From NCBI RefSeq assembly GCF_963921235.1, contig NC_086097.1:8308001-8372000 (forward strand): DNA of 64,000 nucleotides, written 5' to 3'. Below the pieces are notes generated by a model. That model worked only from the letters and a program-made list of their open reading frames with translations, had not been told where the DNA came from and ran no database searches. Of the stretch, positions 3,403 through 57,414 are shown in pieces. The stretch is from Mobula hypostoma. Its lineage: Eukaryota. The number at the start of each line of letters is the position of its first letter. The stretch's first letter is position 1. The translations under genes were made by a program, and so were the position numbers.

Positions 3403-3532
3403 TATCCTGACGAAGGGTCTAGGCCCAAAACGTTGACTGTTCATTTCCACAGATGCTGTCTGACCTGCTGAGTTCCTCCAGCGTTTTGTGCGTGTTGCTT
3501 TGACCCCAGCATCTGCAGAATATTTTGTGTTA
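3403..3532 (+). mobile_element. Penelope-like terminal-repeat fragment with degenerate hammerhead motif
   Basis: CTGACGAAGGGTCTAGGCCCAAAACGTTGACTG (GAAA mutated to AAAA), then the conserved gatgctg..cctgctgagttcctccagc tail. Confidence 0.75.
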
Positions 3533-4374
3533 ATGTTGAATGAACTCTTTTTGCGTTGCCAGGTTCTCTTGTCATTTGTCCTAGTCTTTAATCTGAAGAT
3601 TGTCAAAATGTGACTTTAATTTGCCAGCTAAAATTGCTCGAAACTGACAGTAATGCAGTGAGTAAAGATGTGGTCACCTGCAACTAACTAATTGCTACCA
3701 GGGACTCCATACTGGGAATTTTGGCCTGGGTGGAGGCAAAATAGTTGTTTTATTTATCCTGCAACAATCCTTGCAGGATTTGTGGAGACAACATTAGTAG
3801 TAACTTTCCAATGCTTTGAGATGACTGTCATTAGTCCGTGTCCAAGAAGAGCGTAAGAGCATAGGATCCCTCATGCTCTTTCAACCTTGAATTTTGTTTC
3901 AGGTTTGACATTTGATCTTCTCTTATAAGCAAAGGTTTTATTAACTCATTGAATGTCATGGCTAATTTCATCATCAATATCTCTGCACACTGTGACAATC
4001 TTGCTCGTTTTGCATTCAAACAGACTTGGTGTTTTTTTGCTCTATTTGCGTTCTTTCTTGAAAAATGATGTTAGTTATGTTTATCGTTTCTTGTCAATAA
4101 CTCTGCCATGGATGTGAAGCTATGCCAAGCCCAGTTGTGAACTGAGGAGGGTTGGCATAGGGCTAACATCTCCATCCCGTAACAATGGCAACAGAAGCCT
4201 CAAACATGAAGGATACACCAAGCAGATGGACTACACCTGGTGAGAAGACTGACCCAGGACGGAGAACTCTGTTGAGCTGCTCCTGGCAGCCTCTGCTCCA
4301 GTAGGGTGGTGGGCTTATGTATATAAAGTGGATTTAATTTGGCTTTTTTTTTGCATTGATCAAGAGCACACCTT

Positions 4375-5444: not shown

Positions 5445-7640
5445 CCATAAGAGCATAAGGCATAGGAGCAAAATTAGGCCATTTGGCCCATTGAGTCGGC
5501 TCCACCATTTCATCATGGCTGATCCATTTCTCCCTTAACCCCAATCTCCTGCTTTCTTCCCATAATATTTCAGACCCTGACTGACCATGAACCTATCAAT
5601 CTCTGCCTGTCGCATGGAATTTATCACCTTCTAGCTAAAGAAACTCCTCGTCATCTCTGTTCTAAATTAACGTCCCTCTATTTTGAGGCTATGCCCACTG
5701 ATCCAAGACAGTCCCAACAAATGAAACATCCTCTTCACCTATACTCATTCTTCTAAATTTCAGCAAGCACAGGCCCAAAACCTTCAGCTGCTGCTCATAA
5801 GTTCATCCCTTCATTCCTGGAATCATTCTTGTTGACCTCCTCTGAATCTTTCCAATGTCAGTACATCCTCCTTTAAATTAGGGGTCCCAAACTGCTCATA
5901 ACACTCCAAGTGAGACTTCACTAGTGCTATACACAGCCTCAGTATTACACCCTTGCTTTTATTTCCTCCTGAAATTAATGCTAACATTGCATTTGTCTTC
6001 CTCACCATGAATTCACTGGCAAATTAACCTTCAGGAATCCTGCATGAGAACTCCCAAATCCCTTTACACCTCAGATTTTTGAATTTTCTTCTCATTTAGA
6101 AAATATTCTATGCTTTTATTCCTTCTACCAAAATGCATTACCATGCACTTCTCAGCTGAGTATTCGGTCTGCCACCTATTTGCCCATTCTCCTAATCTGC
6201 CTGTCCTTCTGCAGTCTCTGCTTCCTCAACGCTACCTGCCTCTCCACCTAACTTCACATCACACACAAACTTGGCCACAATGCCACCTATTCCATCACCT
6301 AAATCATTGACATACTGAACATTGTGAAAACACAGACCCCTGTGGAGCCCCACTGGTCACTGCCAGCCAATCCAAAAAGGATCCCTTTATTCCCACTTTT
6401 TGCTTCCTACCAATTATCCAAAGTTATATCCATTCTAATATATTTCCTGTAATACCCTGGGCTCTTGTTTGGCATCCTCATGTGTGTGGCAACTTGTCAG
6501 AGGCCTTCTGAAAATTCATGTACACAATATTCACCACTTCTCCTTTGCCATGTATTACCAAGCACCCCAAAGCCAGATCCTTAACAATCGACTCCAATAT
6601 TTTCCCAACCACCGAGGTCAGGCTAACTGGCCCATAATTTCTCTTCTTCTGTCTCTCTCCCTCCTTGAAGAGTGGAGTGACATTTGCAATTTGCCAGTCT
6701 TCCGGAATCATGCCAGAATCTAGTGAATCCTGAAAGATCATCACTAATGCCTCCAGAATTTCTTCAGTTACCATTTTTAGAACCCTGAGCTGTAGTCCAT
6801 CATGTTTGTATAACTTATCTAACTTCAGACCTTATTCTGGCATCTTCCCCCTTCCTTTCCAGTCCTGAAGAAGGGTCTTGGCCCAAAATGGTGACTGTTT
6901 ATTAATTTCAATACATGCAGCCTAACCTGCTGAGTTCCTCCAGCATTTTGTTGCTTTACGTTTATATTTCATCTTCTCCCCCACCTTATGTTTTTTCTTT
7001 TAGTTGCCTTCTGTTGATTTTTAAAAGCTTCCCAATCTTCTAACTTTTCACTAATTTTCGCCCTATTATATGTGCTCTCTTTTGCTTTTATGTTGGCTTT
7101 GACTTCCCTTGTCAGCCACGGTTGCACCGTCCTGTCTTTAGAATTCTACTTCTTCTTTGGGATGTACCTATTCTGCATCTTCCAAATTGCTTCCAGAAAC
7201 TCCAGCCATTGCTGACCTGCCATCATCCCTGCTAGTGTCTGCTTCCAAATAACTTTGGAAAGCTCCTTTCTCCTGTCTCTGTAATTCTCCTTACTCCACT
7301 GTAATACTGATACATCTGACTTTAGCTTCTCTCTCTCAAACTGCAGGGTGAATTCTATCATTTCATGAGCACTGCCTCATAAGATTTCCATTACCTCAAG
7401 CTCCCTAATCATATCCAGTTCATTACACAACACCCAATCTAGAACTGCTGATCCCCTAGTGGGTTCAACCATAATCTGCTCTAAAACATGATCGCAGAGG
7501 CATTCCACAAATCCTCTCTCTTGGGATCTAGCATCAACTTGATTTTTCCAATCTATTGAAATCCCCCATGACTATCGTAACATTGCCTTTTTGACGAACT
7601 TTTTCTACCTCCCACTGGAACTTGGAGACTACATCCTGGC
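5445..7640 (-). mobile_element. Degenerate CR1/HER1-type LINE (ORF2 fragments), interrupted by a Penelope terminal-repeat piece at ~6830-6955
   Basis: ORFs 5823-6008, 6478-6774 (PEDWQIANVTPLFK..NYGPVSLTSVVGK) and 7146-7361 are CR1 ORF2 segments. Confidence 0.88.
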
Positions 7641-11200: not shown

Positions 11201-12059
11201 AAGTACAAAAAAATAGAAAATGCCAAAAATACTCAGCATCTAGAGAGAGAAAAAACAAAATTAATGTTTCTGATGCAAGATCATCAGCCGAGGCACAGTT
11301 TCTAATATTACCCATTACACCGATATTGCTTAATATGGCAATCACCATCAGAATTTTGTGTTTTTTTTATTTCAGATGTCTAGCATCTGCATATTTTTGC
11401 TTTCCTATTAATAGCTGAAGTATATGTTTTCTTTCAATTTCCTCTGCATTCTGTTCAAAGGTTCTGTTAGTACCTTCAAATAAAGTGGATACAGATGGTG
11501 AATTTTGCAGATGTCAGCAACATTTCTGTTAAGTTTCTTTGGGATAGAAAATACAAAAACAGAAGTGGTGCTAGTAAGTATCTAAAAGTACTCTTTAACC
11601 TGCTCAAGTATATTTTTAATAAGAAAATTGAGATAGCTAGCTCAAGAGGTTAGACTAATACAAAGCATTGACTCTGAAATTTAGAATGATAATTTTGTTC
11701 GTCTGGTGGAAGCAAGTAAAATACAGTGAGGTGTCTTCTCACTTGGCCCTAGTTTTCAATGTAAATTTATTATGAAAGTGTGTATATGTCAGCATATACT
11801 ACCCTGAGATTTATTTTTTTACACAAAAATAAATACAGTAGAATTTATGAAAATCGATACTTAACAATGACCGACAACTATCCGATGTGTAAAAGAGGAC
11901 AAATTGTGCCAATAGTAAATTAATATGTAAATGAATAATACTGATTTGCATAATTCTTAAAATTGAAGTCATAGGCTGAGGAGTCAGTTCAGTGTTGAGT
12001 TGAGTGTCAGAAGCATGATGGTTATACGGTAATAACTATTCCTGACCTGGTGGTGTGGG

Positions 12060-15800: not shown

Positions 15801-16422
15801 ACGTATCTCATCATCACCATTGTTATGTGCCGTGTCATATGACATGGGTGATCTATGACCGCGATTGTTCTTGGCAAAATAAAACCTACAGTATTGTAAT
15901 TTATAGCTTTTATTATTATGCCTTGCACTGTACTGCTTTTGCAAGACAACAATTTTCACAATATATGCTAGGGAACCTGATTCTGACATTACACAGTAAG
16001 TGCATATATTGCATAAATGTCCTTACTCTAGCCATTGGTAATACAGAGAATACCAAGGAACGCAGAGCGACATAGAAAGTTGCTGGACCATGAATCATTT
16101 GCCTGTTCAATATGCAGTGCAGCTGTGCAGATGGCAAACTACACCTTTACATGAATCCATCATGGCAAAACTTGGTACACTGAAACTTTTTCTTCATCTT
16201 CAGAAATGGCTCGTCAAGGACTCTGACTTTTTTATGCTAAAATGTTCTGTTGCAAGAGCAGAGCCACTTGCTTCCATATTCCCAAGGTTTAATATTGAAA
16301 TGAAATAAGGTCTTTAGCAATTCGATCAAATGGTTCTCAAATGACAAGAGAAAGCTTTCTCTGGGTGCTGTACATAATCATTAACTAAAGCTTACGTTTA
16401 TTAATCAAGTATAGTAGGCAGA

Positions 16423-17035
16423 AATACACACAAAATGCTGGTGGAACGCAGCAGGCCAAACAGCATCCGTAGGAAGAAGCACAGTCGACGTTTCGGGCCA
16501 AGACCCTTCGTCAGGACCAACTAAAAGAAGAGATAGTAAGAGATTTGAAAGTGGGAGCGGGAGGGGGAGATCCAAAATGATAGGAGAAGATAGAGCTAAG
16601 AGCTGGAAAGTTGATTGGCAGAAGTGATATGAGTGGATCATGGGATGGGAGGCCTAGGGAGAAAGAAAGGGGGAGGGGAGCACCAGAGGAAGGTGAAGAG
16701 CAGGCAAGGAGTTATGGTGAGAGGGAGAGAGAGAGAAAAGAGAGAGAGTAAAAAAGGGAAAAAAAATAATAAATAAATAAAGGTTGGGGTTGAAGGCTAC
16801 CCAGATGGAATATAAGATGTTGTTCCACCAACCTGAGTGTGGCTTCATCTTGACAGTAGAGGAGGCCGTGGATAGACATATCAGAATGGGAATGGGACGT
16901 GGAATTAAAATGTGTGGCTACTGGGAGATCCTGCTTTCTCTGGCGGACAGAGCGTAGGTGCTCAGCGAAACGGTCTCCCAGTCTGCGTCGGGTCTCACCA
17001 ATATATAGAAGGCACACCGGGAGCACCGGACATAG
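16423..17035 (-). mobile_element. Penelope-like element 3' part: GIY-YIG endonuclease remnant plus terminal repeat
   Basis: ORF 16712-17026 LLYIGETRRRLGDRFAEHLRSV..PVATHFN..HSHSDM..EQHLIFHLGSLQP is the PLE GIY-YIG domain; followed by a pyrimidine tract, hammerhead motif and tail. Confidence 0.92.
16483..16518 (-). ncRNA. Minimal type I hammerhead ribozyme motif (intact core)
   Basis: Reverse complement GGTC-CTGACGA-A-GGGTCTTGGCCC-GAAA-CGTC-GACT: stem I GGUC/GACU, CUGANGA, stem II, GAAA, GUC triplet. Confidence 0.8.
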
Positions 17036-17327
17036 TATATAATAGGCAGGAATTTCTGTTTCAGCTTTATAAAACCCTAGTTAGGCCACAGCTGGAGTAC
17101 AGCATGCAGTTCTGGTCACTCCATTTTAGGAAGGATGTTGGAGAGGGTGCAGAAGACGCTTACCAGGATGCTGCCTGGATTAGAAGGCATGTGCTATAAC
17201 GAGAGGTTGGACAAACTAAGGATTGTTTTCTCTGGAGTGGTGGGGACTGAGTGGGACTCTGATGGAGGTTTATTACATTGTGAGAGACATGGACCGAGTC
17301 AGTCGACAGTTAGTATCTTTAGCCAAG

Positions 17328-17695: not shown

Positions 17696-18985
17696 ACAAT
17701 AGACAATAGGTGCAGGAGTAGGCCATTTGGCCCTTCGATCCAGCACCGCCATTCATTGTGATCATGGCTGATCATCCACAATCAGTATCCAGTTCCTGTC
17801 TTATCCCCATAACCTTTGATTCCGCTATCTTTAAGAGCTCTATCCATCTCTTTCTTGAAAGCATCCAGAGACTTGGCCTCCACAGCCTTCTGGGGCAGAG
17901 CATTCCATATATCCACCACTCTCTGGGTGAAAAAGTTTTTCTTCAACTCCGTTCTAAATGGCCTACCCCTTATTCTTAAACTGTGGCCTCTGGTTCTGGA
18001 CTCACCCATCAGCGGGAACATGCTTCCTGCCTCCAGCGTGTCCAATCCCTTAATAATCTTATATGTTTCAATAAGATCCCCTCTCAGCCTTCTAAATTCC
18101 AGTGTATACAAGCCCAGTCGCTCCGATCTTTCAACATATGACAGTCTCGCCATCCCGGGAATTAGCCTTGTGGACCTACGCTGCACTCCCTCAATAGCAA
18201 GAATGTCCTTCCTCAAATTTGCAGAGCAAAACTGAACACGGTACTCGAGGTGTGGTCTCACCAGTGCCCTGTACAGCTGCAGAAGGACCTCTTTGCTCTT
18301 ATACTCAATTCCCCTTGTTATGAAGGCCAACATGCCATTAGCTTTCTTCACTGCCTGCTGTACTTGCATGCTTGCTTTCAGTGACTGATGTACAAGAACA
18401 CCTAGATCTCGTTGTGCTTCCCCTTTTCCTAACTTGACTCCATTTAGATAATAATCTGCTTTCCTGTTCTTACCACCAAAGTGGATAACCTCACATTTCT
18501 CCACATTAAACTGCATCTGCCATGCATCTGCCCACTCACCCAGCCTGTCCAAGTCACCCTGCATTCTCATAACATCCTCCTAATATTACTTTTAATTCCC
18601 TCATTTAAATCATTAATATATATATATTGTAAACAGCTGCTGTCCCAGCACTGAACCCTGCGGTACCCCACTGGTCACCGCCTGCCATTCCAAAAGGGAC
18701 CCGTTAATCGCTACTCTTTGTTTTCGGTCAGCCAGCCAATTTTCAATCCATGTCAGTACTCTGCCCCCAATACCATGTGCCCTAATTTTGCCCACTAATC
18801 TCCTATGTGGGACTTTATCAAAGGCTTTCTGAAAGTCCAGGTACACAACATCCACTGGCTCTCCCTTGTCCATTTTCATAGTTACATCCTCAAAAAACTC
18901 CAGACGATTAGTCAAGCACGATTTCCCCTTTGTAAATCCATGCTGACTTGGACCAATCCTGTTACTGCTATCCAGATGTGTCGTA
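17696..18985 (-). mobile_element. Relatively young 5'-truncated CR1/HER1-type LINE (RT region, FADD motif deleted)
   Basis: ORFs 18613-18915 (YLDFQKAFDKVPH..SGVPQGSVLG) and 17782-18570 (262 aa RT C-terminus). Confidence 0.95.
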
Positions 18986-20139: not shown

Positions 20140-20436
20140 CAAACACAAGAAAATCTGCTGATGCTGGAAATCCAGAGCAACACACGTAAAATGCTGGGAG
20201 AACTCAGCAACACACATCAGAGTTGCTGGTGAACACAGCAGGCCAGGCAGCATCTCTAGGAAGAGGTTCACCAGCAATTTTGATGTGTGTAAACTGTTGA
20301 GGTTTTTGGTCAAGGCCTTTCATTCAGGCGTCTCACGTCCCTTTCCCACCCCCCCACCCTTCTCAGGTCACAGCCTGAAATATCAACTGTTTACTTTTTT
20401 CATTAGATCTGCTGAGTTCCTCCAGCATTTTGTGTG
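20140..20436. mobile_element. Penelope-derived inverted terminal-repeat insertion with a nested second inverted copy
   Basis: TSD AATGACTAATGTA at 20127-20139 and 20437-20449; inner inverted arms 20210-20234 / 20266-20290. Confidence 0.8.
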
Positions 20437-24574: not shown

Positions 24575-25380
24575 AGTTCAAAGTTCAAAGTAAATGTTAT
24601 TATTCAACTACATAAATGTCACCATATACAACCCAGAGATTAATTTTTTTTGTGGGCATACTCAATAAATCTATAGAATAATAGCCATAATAGAATCAAT
24701 GAAAGACTGCAACACACATCAAAGTTGCTGGTGAATGCAGCAGGCCAGGCAGCATCTCTAGGAGGAGATACAGTCGACGTTTCGGGCCGAGACCCTTCGT
24801 CAGGACTAACATGACTGAATCAATGAAAGACTGGCCAAATTGGGAATTCAACCAGAGTGCGGAAGACAACAAACTATGCAATAAATGAATAAATAAACAA
24901 ACAAATAATAAATAAATAAACAAATAATAGATAATAAATAAGTAATAAATATCTAGATGATGAGATGAAGAGTCCCTGAAATTGAGTTCGTAGATTGTGG
25001 GAACATTTCAATGATGGGGCAAGTTAAGTTGTTTGAAGTTTTACTTATGGTTGAAGAGTCTGATGGTTGAGGGGTAGTTACTGTTCCTAAACCTGATGTT
25101 TTTGGTCACGAAGTTCCTGCACCTTCTTCTTCATGGCAACAGCGAGAAGAGAGAGCATGTTCAGTATGGTGGGAATTCCTGCTGATAGATGCTGCTTTTC
25201 TGTGAAAGTGTTTCACGTGGATGTGTTCAATTGTAGGGAGGGCTTTATCCATGATGGACAGGGCCATATCCTCAACATTTGTAGGATTTTCCATTCAAGG
25301 GCATCAGTGTTTCCATACCAGGATGTGATGCAGCCAGTCACTATACTCTCCACTATGCATCACTAGAAGTTTGTCAAAAG
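24575..25380 (-). mobile_element. Rex1/Babar-like LINE 3' fragment hosting a hammerhead-bearing insertion
   Basis: (TTCAAAG)n tail; ALPTIEHI..RKAASI..HALSS; homologous uninterrupted copy at 57415-58160. Confidence 0.75.
24710..24816 (-). mobile_element. 107-bp Penelope terminal-repeat insertion with intact hammerhead motif (24772-24807)
   Basis: 17-bp TSD GAATCAATGAAAGACTG at 24693-24709 and 24817-24833; reverse complement AGTC-CTGACGA-AGGGTCTCGGCCC-GAAA-CGTC-GACT. Confidence 0.88.
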
Positions 25381-33593: not shown

Positions 33594-36500
33594 GTTCACA
33601 AGATCACAAGACAAAGGAGCAGAAGTAGGCCATTCGGTCCATCGAGTCTGCTCTGCCACTCCACCATGAGCTAAACTATTCTCCCATTTAGTTCCAATTT
33701 CCGGATTTTTCCCCATATCCCTTGATACCCTGACTAATTAGATACCTACCAATCTCCTCCTTAAACACCCTCAAAGATCAGGCCTCCACAGCCATATGTG
33801 GCAACGAATTCCATAAATCCACGACCCTCTGGCTAAAAAAATTTCTCCTCATCTCTGTTTTAAATGGGTACCCTCTAATTCTAAGACTATGGCCTCTTGT
33901 CCTGGATTCACCCACCTAGGGAAACAGCCTTTCCACATCTACTCTGTCCAACCTTTTCAACATTCAAAATGTTTCTATGAGATCCCCTCTCATTCTTCTA
34001 TACTCTAACAAATACAGTCCAAGAGCCGACAAATGATCCTCATTTAGGAATCATCCTCGTAAATCTTCTCTGAACTCTCTCCAACATCAATACATCCCTT
34101 CTAAGACAGGGGGCCCAAAACTGCACACAGTATTCCAAATGAGGTCTCACTAATGCCCCATAGACCCTCATCAACACCTCCTTAATTTTCCTCTTGAAAT
34201 GAATGCCAACATAGCATTCGCTTTCCTTACCGCCAATCCAACTTGGTGGTTAATCTTTAGGATATCCTGCACGAGGACCCCCAAGCCCCTTTGCACTTCC
34301 GATTTTTGAATTTCCTCCCCATCTAAATAATAATCTGCCTGATTATTTCTTCTTTCAAAATGTACAACTGTACATTTCTCAACATTGTGTCTCATCTGCC
34401 ATTTCTTTGCCCACTCTCCTAAACTGACTAAGCCTTTCGGCAACCTTTCTGTTTCTTCAACATTTCCTGCTCCTCCACCTATCTTGGTGTCATCCGCAAA
34501 TTTAGCCACAAAACCATTTGATCCATAATCTAAATTGTAAAAAGCAGCGGCCCCAACACTGACTGTAGTGTTATCGTGCAGTGTGTTGAAACTCTAACTA
34601 AATACCAAGTTAAACCGGAGCCATTGAAGACAGAGTCATAGTAAGATTAACCATTTACTGTTCACTCTTCCACATTAACATCGTATGGTGAAAACTGTTG
34701 ATCAAAAAATACAAACAAAAACAGCGTCTGTTTCATTCTGGAGACCGCCTGTGCTCTCTTCTTTTAGCGAGTGTCTCCAGCCGCCCGAATAGGGAGCGAG
34801 GAGGGTCCCGTCAAACCACCGCCGGGCCTGAGCCCACCCCGCATTAGAAATTGAAAAGCCGACACGCGCGCCACCCAAACCGCCGCTTCCTTAACAGAAA
34901 CCGCGTTAATATTTTTACCTCAAATACTTTGATAGGAACTTACGGCGTTGCTTCTATAATGTTTCTTTGTGGGTAGACATGGAGCTCTTCATGATCATGT
35001 TGCACGCATGGCACCCACCTTCACACCTTCCCGAACCAGAGGGTACTCATAAGACGCGGCGAAATCGGAGGTGACGTCATCGCATGCCGCGATATACCAT
35101 CGACAATGAATTTACCTTTGTTATACTGTAACCTAATTATCAACCTTTAACTTTAACTAGAAAATAGTTCAGTCAAATAAATGCCTTAAGGGCAACACAC
35201 CGACCCCTGCGGAACACCACTAGTAACCGGCAACCAATCAGAATAGGATCCCTTTATTCCCACCTCTTGCTTTCTGCTTATCAGCCAATGCTCCACCCAT
35301 TCCAATATCTTTCCTGTAAGTCCATGGGCTCTCATCTTATTAAGCAGCCTCTTATGCCGCACCTTATCGAAGGCCTTTTGAAAATCCAAAAACACAACAT
35401 TCACAGCCTCTCCCTTGTCAATCTTATTTGAGATTACCTCAAAATTCCAGTAGGTTGGTGAGGCAGGATCTTCCCTTCATGAAACCATGCTGGCTTGGGC
35501 CTATCTTGTCATGCAGCTCGAGATATTTCATAACCTCGTCCTTGAAGATCGACACCAATAACTTTCCAACTACCGATGTCAGACCAATAGGTCTGTAATT
35601 TTCTTTTTGCTGCCTTTCTCCTTTCTTAAACAGCGGAACTACATTTGCGACCTTCCAGTCCTCCAGAACCATGCCAGAGTCTATTGATTCCTGGAAGATC
35701 ATTTCCAATGCCTCCACAATCTCCAAAGCCAACTCCTTCAGAACCCGTGGGTGCACCTCATCTGGTCCGAGAGACTTAACTATTCTTAGTCCATTTAGTT
35801 TCCCAAGCACTTTCTCTCTAGTAATCTTGACTGTACCTAATTTTATTCCCTGAGACCTCTGACTATCAGGTATGTTGCTAATGTCTTCCACTGTGAAGCC
35901 TGATGCAAAATACTCATTTAGTTCCTCTGCCATTATAGTTTCTCCAGCATCATTTTCCATGGGTCCTATATCTACCCATGTCACTCTTTTACTCTTCATG
36001 TATTTAAAAAAACTCTTAGTATCCTTTTTTATGTTAATTGCCAACTTCCTTTCATAATTCATCTTTTCTTTCTTAATGACTTTCTTAGTTTCCTTCTGTA
36101 AGTTTTTAAAAGTCATCCAATCCTCAGTTTTCCCACTAATTTTGTTTCCTCGTATGCCATCTCTTTTGCTTTAATTTTAGCCGTAACCTCTCTCGTTAGC
36201 CACATTTGTGCCATTTTTCCATTCATGATTTTTCTTTTTTCTTGGAATATACTTTTCCCTGCACGTTCCTGATTTCTGGTAGGAATTTCATCTAATTCTG
36301 CTCTACCATCCCTCCATCTAGCTTACTTTTCCAATTGACTTGGGCCAGTTCCTCTCGCATACCACTGTAATTTCCTTTGTTCCACTGAAATATCGATATA
36401 CCGGATACCAGCTTCTCCTTTTCAAATTTGAAACTGAACTGAATCATATTATGAGCACTACTTCCAAGGGGTTCCATTACCTCCAGCTCCCTAATCAGCT

Positions 36501-47262: not shown

Positions 47263-47549
47263 GAATGTGAGGAAGATAGAGGGATATGGTCATTGGGTAG
47301 ATAGGAGGGATTAATTATTGAGCGTATTTGATTTACTTTTTTAGCTGTTTTTTAGGGCCTGTCCTGTGCTGTACTGTTCTATATTCTATGTACACAATTT
47401 AACACAATCACCCTCTCCTCTGAGTCTTCAGTTCACTCTGCAGAAATGCAAGGTTGTACGAACTGTTCAAAAGCTCAATTCTGAAAGAGAAGTTACAGGC
47501 TGTTGATTGTAGTGATCATATCTGTGAAAAAGTGTGAGTAATACAGTCA

Positions 47550-47745
47550 ACAACAGGAATTCTGCAGATGCTGGAAATTCAAGCAACATACATCAAAGTT
47601 GCTGGTGTTCTAAACTTCTTCGGTGTAGGCATCACCGGAAGAGGTTCTGACGAAGGGTCTCGGCCTGAAACGTCGACTGCGCCTCTTCCTATAGATGCTG
47701 CTTGGCCTGCTGCGTTCACCAGCAACTTTGATGTATGTTGCTTGA
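47550..47745. mobile_element. Penelope-derived inverted terminal-repeat insertion with near-intact hammerhead (47643-47678, +)
   Basis: Perfect 29-bp inverted repeat 47579-47607 / 47717-47745; direct repeat TGAGTAATACAGTCA at 47535-47549 and 47743-47757. Confidence 0.88.
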
Positions 47746-48984: not shown

Positions 48985-49720
48985 TTAAGATCATAAGACC
49001 ATAACAGATAGGAGCAGAATTAGCCCATTTGGCCCATTGAGTCTGCTCTGCTATTTCATCATGGCTGATCCAATTTTCTCTCTCAACACCAATCTCCTGC
49101 CTTAAATATACCCAGTGACTGGCCTCCACAGCCAGTTGTGGCAATGAATTCTACAGATTCACCACTCCCTGGCTAAAGAAATTCTTCCTCATCTCCATTC
49201 TAAATGGATGTCCTTCTTGTTTGAGGCTGTGCCCTCTGGTCCTAGACTCTCTCACCATAAGAAACATCCTCTCCCCATCCACTCTATCAAGGCCTTTCAA
49301 TATTTGATAAGTTTCAGTTTCACTCTTCAGAATTTCAGTGAACAGGGGCCCAGAGCCATTAAACACTTTTCACACGACATGCCTTGCAATCCCAATATAA
49401 TTTCTTTGAACCCTCTCCATTGTCAGTGCATTCTTTCTTAGACAGGGGCCCAAAACTGCTCACAGTACTCAAATGAGGCATCACCAATGTTTTATAAAAC
49501 CTCAACAGTACACCCTTGCTTTTATAATCTAGTCCACTCGAAATGAATGCGAACATCACATTTGCCTTCTCTCCACCAACTTAACCCGCACAAGGACGCC
49601 CAAGTCTCTTTGCACCTCTGATTTTTGAATTTTCTCTCCATTTAGAAAGTAGCCTATGCTTTTATTTCTTCTACCAAAGTGCATGAACATAACTTTCTGA
49701 CAATGTATTCCATCTGAATC
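48985..49720 (-). mobile_element. CR1/HER1-type LINE 3' fragment
   Basis: YQILKGLDRVDGERMFLMVRESRTRGHSLK; FAFISSGLDYKSKGVLLRFYKTLV. Confidence 0.85.
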
Positions 49721-50477: not shown

Positions 50478-50630
50478 CAAACACGAGGAAATCTGCAGAT
50501 GTTGGAATTTCAAGCAACATACATAAAAATTGCTGCTGAATGCAGCAGGCCAGGCAGCATCTATAGGAAGAGGTACAGTCGATGTTTCAGGCTAAGACCC
50601 TTCGTCAGGATTGACGAAGTGTGTCCTGAA
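50478..50630 (-). mobile_element. Penelope terminal-repeat insertion with hammerhead motif (50577-50612)
   Basis: Reverse complement AATC-CTGACGA-AGGGTCTTAGCCT-GAAA-CATC-GACT; GCTACCT direct repeat at 50471-50477 and 50631-50637. Confidence 0.78.
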
Positions 50631-55867: not shown

Positions 55868-57414
55868 CTATTTATGTATATGTTAAATGTCCCCAGTTAA
55901 ATTTTCCAGTAAGTAGTTTCTTCCTAATTTTCAAGTAAGTAGTTCCTTCCTACTTTTCATGCAACCCAACTTTAAATACGTCAGCTTGACCCCATTGGAG
56001 GGTCTTGACCTGAAACATTGACTGTTTATTAATTTCTATAGATGCAGCCTCAACTGCTGAGTTCTTCCACCATTTTGTGTGTGTAGTTTATACACATCAG
56101 CCAACCCTCCTGGAAGATCATTGCTCTAGAGCAGGGTTCCCAACCTTTTTTATGCTATGGATCAATACCAATAAGCTAGGGGTCCGGGAACCCAGTTTCT
56201 ACTGGGATAATTACCTACAGAAGCAATACCTTTTTTGACATCAAGTGCACAAGCATGGGGTCTGCTACAAATGTCCCTTTAATTTATTAACTATTTGATC
56301 ATGAGCATCCAACCAGCATGATTCCAGTTTGTTTCTCTGACAGCTCTCTGGAGTAACTCAGGTAGAGCAGGAATTTGACCAACCCCTGAAGATCATGTAT
56401 TCTGGTAATCGGGCTTGGCATCTTCTTTGCGATGATCTGAAAGATATTTATTTATTGCTTCTTTAAAGTATATATCTATCTAATCGTTTATATATACTGT
56501 ATATTGTTTGATAAAGATTCATGTTCATTTAAATAATTCATTACAACTTATGTATAAAAATACATAAATTGCATATATTGACATGCTACCACATGATATG
56601 TACATACCTCACTTAAAGTAAACACAAAGATAGACTCATATTTTGGACTCCCATGTCTTCCTTTTAATTGGATTAACATTTTTAAGTGACAAAACGTTAG
56701 AGCAGAGTTTACATTTTTTCTATTATGGTGTTCTTTATCTTATTGTGTATTTTGTGCATCAGATCCAGAGTAAAAATTATTTTTGTTTTCCTTTACACTG
56801 GAGTATTGGAAATGACATTAAACAATTGTGAAACTTGAATCTCGGATCTACTGGGGCTATTAACACTATGCAAGACAGTTTATCAAAATCAGCTTCAAAT
56901 TTCCAGAGCCATTGGATCATGTTTCGGTGAACATACTAATCTACGTTTGTAGACAGTATCCCATCACACTCCTGACTTTGCCATAGACCATAAGGCAGAA
57001 TTAGGTCTTTTGGCCCATCTAGTCTGCACCATCATTTATTCAGAGCTGATTTATTTGTCCTTTCAATCCCATTCTTCTGTCGTCTCCTGGTAACCCCTTT
57101 ATGGAAGTCGCTTTCTTGAACCTCAGCTTTGAATGGTATTTGCTTACCTTTATTGTTTGCCCAGTTTGTTATTTTTTCTGCCCATTGGGTGTTTGGCTGT
57201 CTTCTTTTTTAATGGCCTTTATTGGGTTTCTTTCTGTTGAGGCTGCCTATAAGGACACAAATCTCAATCTAGTATATAGTATGCATATTTTGACAATAAA
57301 TGTATTTTAAACTATAACCTTTGATGCCCTGATTAATCAAGAACCTATCAAACTTCACTTTAACCATAACCAATGATTTGGTCTCCACAGCCATCTGTGG
57401 CAATGATTCACCAA

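What the first reader, a model, noticed from the sequence alone, without database searches (positions are those of the whole stretch)
16423..17035. Penelope GIY-YIG remnant linked to an intact minimal hammerhead ribozyme that needs a dimer to fold
Seen: on the ORF (minus) strand, about 200 nt after the GIY-YIG remnant, the sequence reads GGUC-CUGACGA-A-GGGU(CUUG)GCCC-GAA-ACGU-C-GACU. It has stem I (GGUC/GACU), the CUGANGA and GAAA core boxes, a 4-bp stem II, an extra A after A9 and a GUC cleavage triplet. Stem III is only the loopless palindrome ACGU. Established: Penelope-like elements carry minimal type I hammerheads in their terminal repeats that are thought to cleave as dimers. Inference: this element family is the source of the short hammerhead insertions across the window.
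Basis: partly seen in the sequence, partly recalled or inferred. Interest (0 to 1): 0.75.

Follow-up and report, generated by a model that had tools for sequence, protein, structure and literature searches.

The report
Dead Penelope-like retroelement tail with hammerhead
This is the decayed tail end of a Penelope-like jumping gene that carries the small "minimal hammerhead" RNA-cutting motif already known from such elements, so it is a real but ordinary feature of a genome that holds about a hundred thousand copies of it.

Summary
At window 16483-16518 (-) the sequence reads GGUC-CUGACGA-A-GGGU(CUUG)GCCC-GAA-ACGU-C-GACU, and every hammerhead core position is intact. It lies 271 nt downstream of a GIY-YIG endonuclease remnant.

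The insertion spans 16425-17040 (-) and is flanked by a 12-bp target duplication. It is a 5'-truncated, roughly 20% diverged copy of a Penelope-like element (PLE).

Full-length relatives in the same genome show the canonical PLE layout:
- pLTR-ORF-pLTR or tandem units of about 3.5 kb, with one hammerhead per pLTR, 3512 nt apart
- RT, a CX4CxxC linker and a CCHH GIY-YIG domain in one frame
- inverted 5'-truncated neighbours
- two 3'-end classes about 35 nt apart, the PLE "tail"

The motif matches the published PLE minimal hammerhead: an extra nucleotide after A9, G10.1-C11.1, and a loopless palindromic helix III. The genome holds about 108,000 relaxed-pattern matches, against 0 for the reversed control.

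This copy is a fossil and its cleavage is untested. Copy ends give no sign that cleaved RNA is the usual template. Among genomic copies, paired double changes are no more common than unpaired ones, so there is no compensatory signal. The short hammerhead insertions in the window are PLE pLTR-derived, but they come from at least three subfamilies. This is a new member of a known kind, of low interest.

The parts
17041..17052 (.). Upstream copy of the target-site duplication, TTCCTGCCTATT as read on the minus strand
   Evidence: alignment: homology to the reference copy starts at 17040. The same 12-mer, with 2 mismatches, follows the 3' end; the depth of family contigs falls to near 0 beyond about 17027-17051.
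16790..17040 (-). Remnant of the C-terminal GIY-YIG endonuclease coding region. It runs from the CxxC between GIY and YIG onwards. It has a 1-nt deletion near its start, and a 51-nt deletion has removed the end of the ORF and its stop codon.
16519..16789 (-). C/T-rich 3' untranslated spacer of the element, with a 15-nt deletion relative to the reference
   Evidence: alignment to L046
16483..16518 (-). Minimal type I hammerhead motif. Helix I 5' strand 16515-16518; CUGACGA 16508-16514; extra A 16507; helix II 16503-16506 / 16495-16498 with loop 16499-16502; GAA 16492-16494; ACGU 16488-16491; C17 16487; helix I 3' strand 16483-16486.
16425..16482 (-). Element tail downstream of the hammerhead. 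In tandem copies this is the leader of the next unit's ORF. It ends at the shorter of the two 3'-end classes.
   Evidence: loose ends at 16426 continue in other copies with the optional extension.
16413..16424 (.). Downstream copy of the target-site duplication, TTTCTGCCTACT as read on the minus strand
24709..24819 (-). Short hammerhead-plus-tail copy, 89% identical to family A, with an intact core. Its 5' end lies about 11-14 nt before CUGA.
47644..47745 (+). Young short hammerhead-plus-tail copy, 97-99% identical to family A, with an intact core of the U11.1 variant
47546..47643 (-). Inverted fragment of the element's ORF-proximal leader, 97-100% identical, abutting the 47644 copy head to head
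50479..50619 (-). Short hammerhead-plus-long-tail copy, 87% identical. The helix III palindrome is lost (ACAU).
3405..3540 (+). Short copy of the second subfamily (87% to family B). The hammerhead is decayed: GAAA has become AAAA and GUC has become GUU.
6839..6970 (+). Old copy of a third subfamily with a decayed hammerhead
55999..56089 (+). Old copy of the third subfamily, 5'-truncated inside the hammerhead
20191..20270 (-). Tail-only fragment of family A. Its 5' end lies about 9 nt after the predicted cleavage site.

Best explanation
Window 16425-17040 (-) is a dead, 5'-truncated retrocopy of an endonuclease-bearing Penelope-like element. It was made by target-primed reverse transcription that began in the element's tail and stopped inside the endonuclease region. 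The hammerhead motif in it is the element's pLTR minimal hammerhead.

In complete elements, one such motif sits about 330 nt after the ORF stop and about 85 nt before the next ORF, so a transcript of a pLTR-ORF-pLTR or tandem copy carries two of them 3512 nt apart.

The most likely function, inferred from published work and not shown here, is this. Two motifs pair through the ACGU palindrome and swapped helix I strands into a double hammerhead that cuts after GUC. This happens slowly, probably with help from the element's protein, and trims multimeric or read-through transcripts to unit length.

In this solitary, truncated and diverged copy the motif has no role.
For: Motif:
- It is exact and far beyond chance.
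- The genome has 48,973 matches to the 32-nt pattern and 107,964 to a relaxed 27-nt pattern, with 0 for the reversed controls.

Element identity:
- L047 copy 1 has RT, CKRNKCYTC...VIYCVRCSRCGLLYIGE... and the rest of GIY-YIG in one frame.
- Pfam gives RVT_1 at 1.3e-5 and GIY-YIG at 3.5e-4, both just under their cut-offs.
- The nearest Atlas clusters are animal RT+GIY-YIG proteins at 0.98.

Architecture:
- In L046 the hammerheads are at 2407 and 5919, the 155-nt pLTRs are 100% identical, and an inverted 5'-truncated copy is adjacent.
- In L047 the tandem units are 3518 nt long and 99.2% identical.
- 3' ends of 44 copies: 15 at +92..+99 and 21 at +129..+145.
- Among neighbouring tail hits within 3 kb, 16 pairs are head to head, 2 are tail to tail and 4 are direct.

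Window copy:
- It aligns from inside the EN domain to the tail and has a 12-bp target duplication.
- The GIY-YIG peptide sits at the same distance from the hammerhead in 13 of 30 genomic loci.

Match to the published PLE minimal hammerhead:
- It has the extra nucleotide between A9 and 10.1, the G10.1-C11.1 pair, the palindromic 15.2-16.2, and the pLTR location (PMC4209133).

Conservation:
- Between two diverged subfamilies the 36-nt hammerhead keeps 33 of 36 majority positions. The 3 changes are in loop II or are U/C at 11.1.
- The upstream flank keeps 22 of 57 and the downstream flank 64 of 111.
Against: - Cleavage was not tested.
- Secondary-structure energies do not favour the active form. 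The monomer minimum (-12.7 kcal/mol) is a rod in which GACG of the core pairs with CGUC at the cleavage site. The double hammerhead scores -16.3, against -25.4 for two rods and -35.5 for an extended duplex.
- Every copy that holds the motif also holds the sequence 3' of the cut site, so its template was uncut or re-ligated.
- Only 2 of 20 examined tail copies that lack a motif match start within 6 nt of the cut site.
- Paired double changes in helix II are no more enriched than an unpaired control, odds ratio 2.63 against 2.43.
- The subfamily comparison is biased, because subfamily B was found through its hammerhead.
- 84 of the 100 listed exact matches, and all 5 motifs in the three open-frame units examined, carry U at 11.1. 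This gives G.U in place of the conserved G-C.
- For an Anolis PLE, hammerhead mutants inserted normally in vitro and no RNA-seq reads ended at the cut site (PMC11167929, passages).
Confidence: 0.9

Rival explanations
1. The short hammerhead-plus-tail units (about 100-145 bp) are a self-sustaining non-autonomous family, SINE-like or retrozyme-like, that borrows the PLE machinery. On this reading they are not by-products of truncated PLE reverse transcription.
For: - 5' ends are not spread evenly. Of 43 aligned copies, 23 start between -48 and 0 relative to CUGA, 1 starts at -129, and 19 start at -299 or further.
- 7 more of 20 tail-ascertained copies start at +1..+7.
- 6 of the 7 hammerhead-bearing fragments in the window are of this short class.
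- A 2026 preprint argues that animal non-LTR retrozymes derive from PLE pLTRs (10.64898/2026.07.22.740005, abstract and part of the Results read).
Against: - Short and long copies share the same two 3'-end classes.
- Both show the same mix of CpG-decay variants just after the motif.
- No tandem arrays of short units were seen. In the window the copies are dispersed or head to head. Of 4 direct neighbour pairs within 3 kb, one (41 nt apart) is a partial duplication and one is a second subfamily.
- No promoter or transcript evidence is available.
Confidence: 0.15
2. The motif is kept for a non-catalytic reason. It could act as a fold-back or RNA-pairing element, or as part of the signals read by the element's protein or the splicing machinery. 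Its hammerhead-like core would then be tolerated or vestigial.
For: - The predicted ground state is a rod hairpin, and GUCGAC and ACGU are overlapping palindromes.
- 5' ends of short copies, and the junctions of 11 tight head-to-head pairs (mean arm ends -43 to +23, median +4.5), centre on the motif.
- The most successful lineage has G.U at 10.1-11.1.
- A pyrimidine tract followed by CAG lies directly before helix I in both subfamilies. This recalls the intron end at helix I reported for D. virilis (PMC4209133).
- Published data show that insertion in vitro does not need cleavage (PMC11167929) and that PLE clades without hammerheads proliferate well (PMC8557442).
Against: - All 11 invariant core positions and the NUH site are kept in both subfamilies, which a mere hairpin would not need.
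- PLE hammerheads of fungi, plants and protists are active as monomers, and a schistosome minimal motif cleaved weakly as a dimer (PMC4209133).
- The clustering of ends could equally reflect a block to reverse transcription at the C/T-rich spacer.
Confidence: 0.2
3. The hammerhead-like string is a chance resemblance inside a repeat.
For: No Rfam hammerhead model matches it.
Against: - All core boxes, both helices, the bulged nucleotide and the palindrome match the published PLE minimal hammerhead, in the published place (pLTR) (PMC4209133).
- The block is the best conserved part between subfamilies.
Confidence: 0.02

Closest known systems
Minimal hammerheads (min-HHR) in the pLTRs of metazoan Penelope-like elements, including the fish Xena, Poseidon and Neptune elements (Cervera & De la Pena 2014, PMC4209133)
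   Same: - Type I topology with no helix III loop.
- Palindromic 15.2-16.2 (here CG).
- One unpaired nucleotide between A9 and 10.1.
- A short helix I (4-5 bp).
- G10.1-C11.1 in the window copy.
- Located in both flanking repeats of complete elements.
- Most genomic copies are solitary or lie in opposite-strand pairs 100-700 bp apart.
   Different: - Helix II has 4 bp, where the schistosome families have 7-8.
- The copy number is far higher than the ~4,000 and ~9,000 reported there for coelacanth and Xenopus: 107,964 relaxed matches.
- The dominant young lineage has U at 11.1.
- Sequence variation within the family is low, where the paper stresses extreme variability.
Hammerhead of the Anolis carolinensis Poseidon element PAc (Frangieh et al. 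2024, PMC11167929)
   Same: - It lies just before or at the start of the ORF, inside the pLTR.
- The element has two adjacent reverse-transcription start sites that explain the 30-40 bp optional tail. Here the two 3'-end classes are about 35 nt apart.
- Genomic copies imply that uncut RNA serves as the template.
   Different: - In PAc the ORF starts within helix II and the cut site lies 26 bp after the start codon. Here the first in-frame ATG lies about 85 nt after the start of the motif.
- PAc belongs to the Penelope/Poseidon clade, which lacks the CX2-5CxxC linker that this element has.
Dimer-dependent satellite hammerheads of newts and schistosomes (Forster et al. 1988 and Ferbeyre et al. 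1998, as cited in PMC4209133 and PMC6765202), and Lunse et al. 2017, 'cleave RNA as dimers', seen only as a reference in PMC6765202
   Same: An unstable helix III with a palindromic sequence, so that two copies must pair to build the active site.
   Different: - Those motifs sit in short tandem repeats that bring two copies close together.
- Here the partners are 3.5 kb apart in complete elements and are absent for solitary copies.
Animal non-LTR retrozymes (bioRxiv 10.64898/2026.07.22.740005)
   Same: Short non-coding units carrying a type I hammerhead and related to PLE pLTRs.
   Different: - Retrozymes are defined by tandem head-to-tail arrays that give circular RNAs.
- The short units seen here are dispersed singles or head-to-head pairs.

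Membership tests
Hammerhead ribozyme, PLE minimal type I | Conserved core C3 U4 G5 A6 N7 G8 A9 and G12 A13 A14, the A15.1-U16.1 pair, and an H17 cleavage nucleotide | tested here: met
   Read directly as CUGACGA ... GAA-A..U-C at 16487-16514
Hammerhead ribozyme, PLE minimal type I | Helix I and helix II flanking the core, with G10.1-C11.1 | tested here: met
   GGUC/GACU and GGGU/GCCC. Both helices appear in the predicted folds. The genome's majority variant has G.U at 10.1-11.1.
Hammerhead ribozyme, PLE minimal type I | One unpaired nucleotide between A9 and 10.1, and a palindromic 15.2-16.2 with no loop III (PMC4209133) | tested here: met
   Extra A at 16507; ACGU at 16488-16491
Hammerhead ribozyme, PLE minimal type I | Present in both flanking repeats of complete elements | tested here: met
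   L046: motifs at 2407 and 5919. L047: motifs at 2315 and 5827.
Hammerhead ribozyme, PLE minimal type I | Match to a curated Rfam hammerhead model | tested here: not met
   0 matches at gathering score over the whole window and none at E<=10 over 16300-16700. That the models assume a closed helix III is my own knowledge, not a tool result.
Hammerhead ribozyme, PLE minimal type I | Compensatory change in the helices | tested here: inconclusive
   The paired double change 10.2A+11.2U occurs 140 times (53 expected, odds ratio 2.63). The unpaired control 10.2A+11.3U occurs 169 times (69 expected, odds ratio 2.43). Copies decay neutrally, so this neither supports nor refutes the structure. Differences between subfamilies are confined to the loop or are G-C versus G.U.
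Hammerhead ribozyme, PLE minimal type I | Self-cleavage 3' of C17, as a dimer | not testable with these tools
   The listed public runs are all held as assembled contigs and none is on record as RNA, so no RNA ends can be read.
Penelope-like element, endonuclease-bearing | A single ORF with an RT followed by a C-terminal GIY-YIG endonuclease | tested here: met
   L047 copy 1 has one frame of 670 aa up to the locus edge. RVT_1 scores 1.3e-5 and GIY-YIG 3.5e-4, both just below the Pfam cut-offs. In the window only the EN remnant is present.
Penelope-like element, endonuclease-bearing | CCHH motif with two cysteines between GIY and YIG; CX2-5CxxC linker (Neptune and Nematis clades) | tested here: met
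   VIY-CVRCSRCGL-LYIG and CKRNKCYTC in the translations. The definitions come from PMC8557442.
Penelope-like element, endonuclease-bearing | pLTRs from partial tandems, an adjacent inverted 5'-truncated copy, and frequent 5' truncation | tested here: met
   16 head-to-head pairs against 2 tail-to-tail among neighbours within 3 kb.
Penelope-like element, endonuclease-bearing | An optional 30-40 bp tail at the insertion end | tested here: met
   3' ends of 44 copies: 15 at +92..+99 and 17 at +129..+134, plus 4 at +140..+145
Penelope-like element, endonuclease-bearing | RT groups with the PLE/telomerase RT clade | not tested
   No reference PLE sequences were at hand. A PDB sequence search gave nothing relevant.
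Non-LTR retrozyme | Head-to-tail tandem arrays of short hammerhead units | tested here: not met
   The window copies are dispersed or head to head. Only 4 direct neighbour pairs were found among 100 tail hits, and none is an array. This is a small sample, not a genome-wide test.

The most novel reading that the evidence does not exclude
In this genome the hammerhead block may act chiefly as a fold-back or RNA-pairing element that shapes how PLE copies are made, rather than as an efficient self-cutter.
- The 5' ends of more than half of the sampled copies, and the junctions of tight head-to-head pairs, centre on it.
- Its predicted ground state is a rod.
- The lineage that reached roughly 10^5 copies carries a G.U wobble at the otherwise conserved 10.1-11.1 pair.
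- Almost no copies begin at the cut site.
Probability: 0.15. Interest if true: 0.55.

Novelty: new member of a known kind. Interest (0 to 1): 0.25.

Why it matters
As a single locus it does not matter. It is a dead copy of a known type of retroelement carrying a known type of ribozyme motif.

The family behind it is a useful natural data set:
- It has about 10^5 copies.
- Some units have long open frames and identical pLTRs.
- The two 3'-end classes are sharp.
- The 5' ends and inverted junctions cluster on the hammerhead.

With RNA end-mapping from this species, the family could help settle a question that is still open: whether PLE hammerheads cut in vivo at all, or whether they serve another step of retrotransposition.

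Tried and rejected
- Rfam: no hammerhead family matched at gathering score or at E<=10.
- Public runs: no RNA holder is listed. All 23 runs are kept as contigs. Laying 4 of them showed only that four coded organisms hold thousands of contigs at least 90% alike, and that cover stops at the element's ends. It cannot show RNA ends or expression.
- PDB sequence search with the 935-aa frame gave one irrelevant weak hit.
- A search for other hammerhead families with a different helix II gave 401 matches against 318 for the control, mostly decayed copies of the same family.
- Helix II covariation test by genome-wide counts: no excess over an unpaired control.
- Test for copies starting at the cut site: 2 of 20. 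L045 starts about 11 nt after the cut site.
- The idea that the window's 'CUUG' loop is a private CpG decay is doubtful, because no variant reaching 10% is listed at that position in the four runs laid.
- Lunse et al. 2017 could not be read.
- 9 of 52 copies, all old ones picked by a variant pattern, did not align to the reference and were dropped from the 5'-end count.
- Loci L003, L014 and L031-L047 were left out of that sample as duplicates or as loci chosen for their length.

Full report
**What is at the coordinates**

On the minus strand the window reads ...UUAGUU GGUC CUGACGA A GGGU CUUG GCCC GAA ACGU C GACU GUGC... at 16483-16518. This is a type I hammerhead layout:
- helix I is GGUC/GACU
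- the CUGANGA and GAAA boxes are present
- helix II has 4 bp, with G10.1-C11.1
- one extra A follows A9
- the cleavage triplet is GUC
- in place of a helix III hairpin there is only the palindrome ACGU

The 36-mer is exact. No shuffle of the window gives even a 3-mismatch match, yet two more copies are found at that level. The looser box pattern gives 7 matches against 1.08 expected.

Rfam reports no hammerhead family, either at gathering score over the window or at E<=10 over 16300-16700.

**The surrounding insertion**

Upstream on the same strand, the frame 16712-17080 reads ...LLYIGETRRRLGDRFAEHLRSVRQRKQDLPVATHFNSTSHSHSDMSIHGLLYCQDEATLRLVEQHLIFHLGSLQP.... Its Pfam GIY-YIG match is weak (E 0.069).

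Aligned to a complete genomic copy, homology runs from 17040 to 16425. The 17040 end lies inside the endonuclease domain, at the CxxC between GIY and YIG. The aligned stretch shows:
- a 1-nt deletion near its start
- a 51-nt deletion that removes the end of the ORF and its stop
- a 15-nt deletion in the C/T-rich spacer
- about 77% identity overall by BLAST

A 12-bp direct repeat, TT(C/T)CTGCCTA(T/C)T, flanks the insertion at 17052-17041 and 16424-16413.

Contigs of four public runs, from four coded organisms, cover the stretch thousands of times at 90% likeness or more. Their cover stops at these same ends.

The hammerhead begins 271 nt after the coding homology ends, not about 200.

**The family**

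The window's own genome is 3.48 Gb.

| Pattern | Matches | Reversed control |
|---|---|---|
| 32-nt motif pattern | 48,973 | 0 |
| relaxed 27-nt motif pattern | 107,964 | 0 |
| 20-mer of the tail | 116,507 | 0 |

The GIY-YIG peptide lies at the same distance upstream of the motif in 13 of 30 loci fetched by the motif. Copies share a 3' end and differ in their 5' reach.

Complete units were found through the RT frame. All 99 matches scored had E<=8.4e-240, and 4 of them had a 935-aa open frame.
- **L046** has a 155-nt pLTR, a 935-aa open frame and a second pLTR that is 100% identical. Its hammerheads are at 2407 and 5919, 3512 nt apart. An inverted 5'-truncated copy abuts it upstream.
- **L047** is a tandem of 3518-nt units that are 99.2% identical. 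In one unit the RT, a CKRNKCYTC linker and ...VIYCVRCSRCGLLYIGE... through to the ORF end are in one frame. In the other unit a one-base length difference in a C run puts the endonuclease in another frame.
- Pfam gives RVT_1 at 1.3e-5 and GIY-YIG at 3.5e-4, both just under their cut-offs.
- The protein atlas places the protein among animal RT+GIY-YIG clusters at 0.98.

The 3' ends of 44 copies fall into two classes about 35 nt apart: 15 at +92..+99 and 21 at +129..+145 after CUGA. Among neighbouring tail hits within 3 kb, 16 pairs are head to head, 2 are tail to tail and 4 are direct.

These are the published hallmarks of endonuclease-bearing Penelope-like elements (PMC8557442 and PMC11167929, passages read):
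- pLTRs from partial tandems
- an inverted 5'-truncated neighbour
- a 30-40 bp optional tail that reflects two reverse-transcription start sites
- the CCHH motif inside GIY-YIG
- the CX2-5CxxC linker, described for the Neptune and Nematis clades

**Comparison with the known motif**

Cervera and De la Pena (PMC4209133; about the first 20,000 of 32,700 characters read) defined exactly this minimal hammerhead in PLE pLTRs. It has no helix III loop, a palindromic 15.2-16.2, an unpaired nucleotide between 9 and 10.1, and a conserved G10.1-C11.1. Copies are mostly solitary or lie on opposite strands 100-700 bp apart.

They found weak cleavage only with dimeric or trimeric constructs. A review repeats the dimer model and cites Lunse et al. 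2017, which I could not read (PMC6765202, passages).

The window motif meets every sequence feature of that definition.

**How it would work, and what the data here say**

Nearest-neighbour folding does not favour the catalytic form.

| Structure | Energy (kcal/mol) |
|---|---|
| Monomer minimum: a rod in which GACG of the core pairs with CGUC at the cut site | -12.7 |
| Monomer with helices I and II alone | -8.7 |
| Double hammerhead (swapped helix I, intermolecular ACGU) | -16.3 |
| Two rods | -25.4 |
| Extended duplex | -35.5 |

This fits the low activity in vitro and the protein-assisted cleavage reported for an Anolis element (PMC4209133, PMC11167929).

The fossil record of insertions gives no sign that cut RNA is the usual template:
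- Each copy with the motif also holds the sequence beyond the cut site.
- Of 100 tail hits, 55 have a motif match at the expected offset and 45 do not.
- I fetched and examined 20 of those 45. Eight reach at least 82 nt upstream and have a mutated motif. Three start at -30, -17 and -6. Seven start at +1..+7. Only two start near the cut site, at +26 and +34.

Covariation among copies is not detectable. The paired double change in helix II has an odds ratio of 2.63, and an unpaired control has 2.43. This is what neutral decay of copies of mixed age would give.

A second subfamily has 1,255 strict matches. Against it, the hammerhead keeps 33 of 36 majority positions, and the differences lie in loop II and at 11.1 (U or C). 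The upstream flank keeps 22 of 57 and the downstream flank 64 of 111. That subfamily was found through its hammerhead, so the contrast is biased.

**Points that depart from the textbook picture**

1. 84 of the 100 listed exact matches carry U at 11.1, by my count of the rows. So do all 5 motifs in the three open-frame units examined. The most successful lineage therefore has G.U where G-C is described as conserved.
2. 5' ends are bimodal. Of 43 aligned copies, 23 begin between -48 and 0, one at -129, and 19 at -299 or further. The junctions of 11 tight head-to-head pairs centre on the motif, with a median of +4.5.

I cannot tell whether the second point reflects a block to reverse transcription at the C/T-rich spacer, fold-back at the rod-like motif, or a short template RNA.

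**The window's other copies**

BLAST against the pLTR of two subfamilies finds hammerhead-bearing fragments at these places:
- 3405-3540 (+), closer to subfamily B, core decayed
- 6839-6970 (+) and 55999-56089 (+), a third and older subfamily
- 24709-24819 (-), core intact
- 47644-47745 (+), 97-99% identical, core intact, with an inverted leader fragment abutting it
- 50479-50619 (-), helix III palindrome lost
- a tail-only piece at 20191-20270 (-)

**Verdict**

The locus is a dead copy of a known kind of element with a known kind of motif.

Noticed in passing
L047:1505 versus L047:5022; also L045, L046, L032: Several young copies share a 935-aa open frame that ends before the endonuclease. 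A one-base length difference in a C run separates RT and EN frames, while the neighbouring tandem unit has both in one frame. It could be a propagated defective lineage, an assembly error in a homopolymer run, or frameshifting. I did not resolve which.
   Followed up: partly
L046:2385-2406, L047:2295-2314, L064-L077 just 5' of the motif; window 16519-16540 (-): A pyrimidine tract followed by CAG lies directly before helix I in both subfamilies (...CTCTTCCTTCAG|TTAGTC and ...CCCTTCCCTCTACAG|TC). It looks like a 3' splice acceptor and recalls the D. virilis Penelope intron that ends at helix I (PMC4209133).
   Followed up: no
window 16483-16491 (-): ACGU overlaps a second, longer palindrome, GUCGAC, which spans the cleavage site. 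Two RNAs could therefore pair over 6 bp there instead of forming helix III.
   Followed up: no
G000 genome-wide; L064-L079: A second PLE subfamily has the same hammerhead core, loop UCCG, a different tail (GACUCAUCGUUUCC...), the same two 3'-end classes and head-to-head pairs. It has 1,255 strict matches.
   Followed up: partly
window 17782-18579 (-) and 16909-17199 (+): There is a 265-aa open frame (EDVMRMQGDLDRLGEWADAWQMQFNVEKCEVIHFG...), and on the other strand a similar LYKTLVRPQLEY... stretch next to the insertion. From memory these look like the C-terminal part of a LINE reverse transcriptase. Pfam gave no significant family. The PLE copy seems to lie beside or inside older LINE debris.
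   Followed up: no
window 16475-16509 versus its flanks: In contigs of four runs from four coded organisms, no site in the core shows a variant at 10% or more, apart from N7 (16510) and the outer helix I pair (16518). The 16 nt downstream (16459-16474) show 4 such sites and the 41 nt upstream (16518-16558) show 7. These runs also show no listed variant at the loop or at position 11.1, so the window's CUUG/C11.1 form may be the common one elsewhere.
   Followed up: partly
window 11266-11287 (-), 36088-36127 (-), 49311-49330 (-): Three matches to CTGANGA...GAAAC are unrelated to the family and have no convincing helices. They look like chance matches.
   Followed up: no
window 24772-24807 (-) and 16483-16518 (-): Two sequence-intact minimal hammerheads lie on the same strand 8.3 kb apart. 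A long host transcript of that strand would carry both.
   Followed up: no
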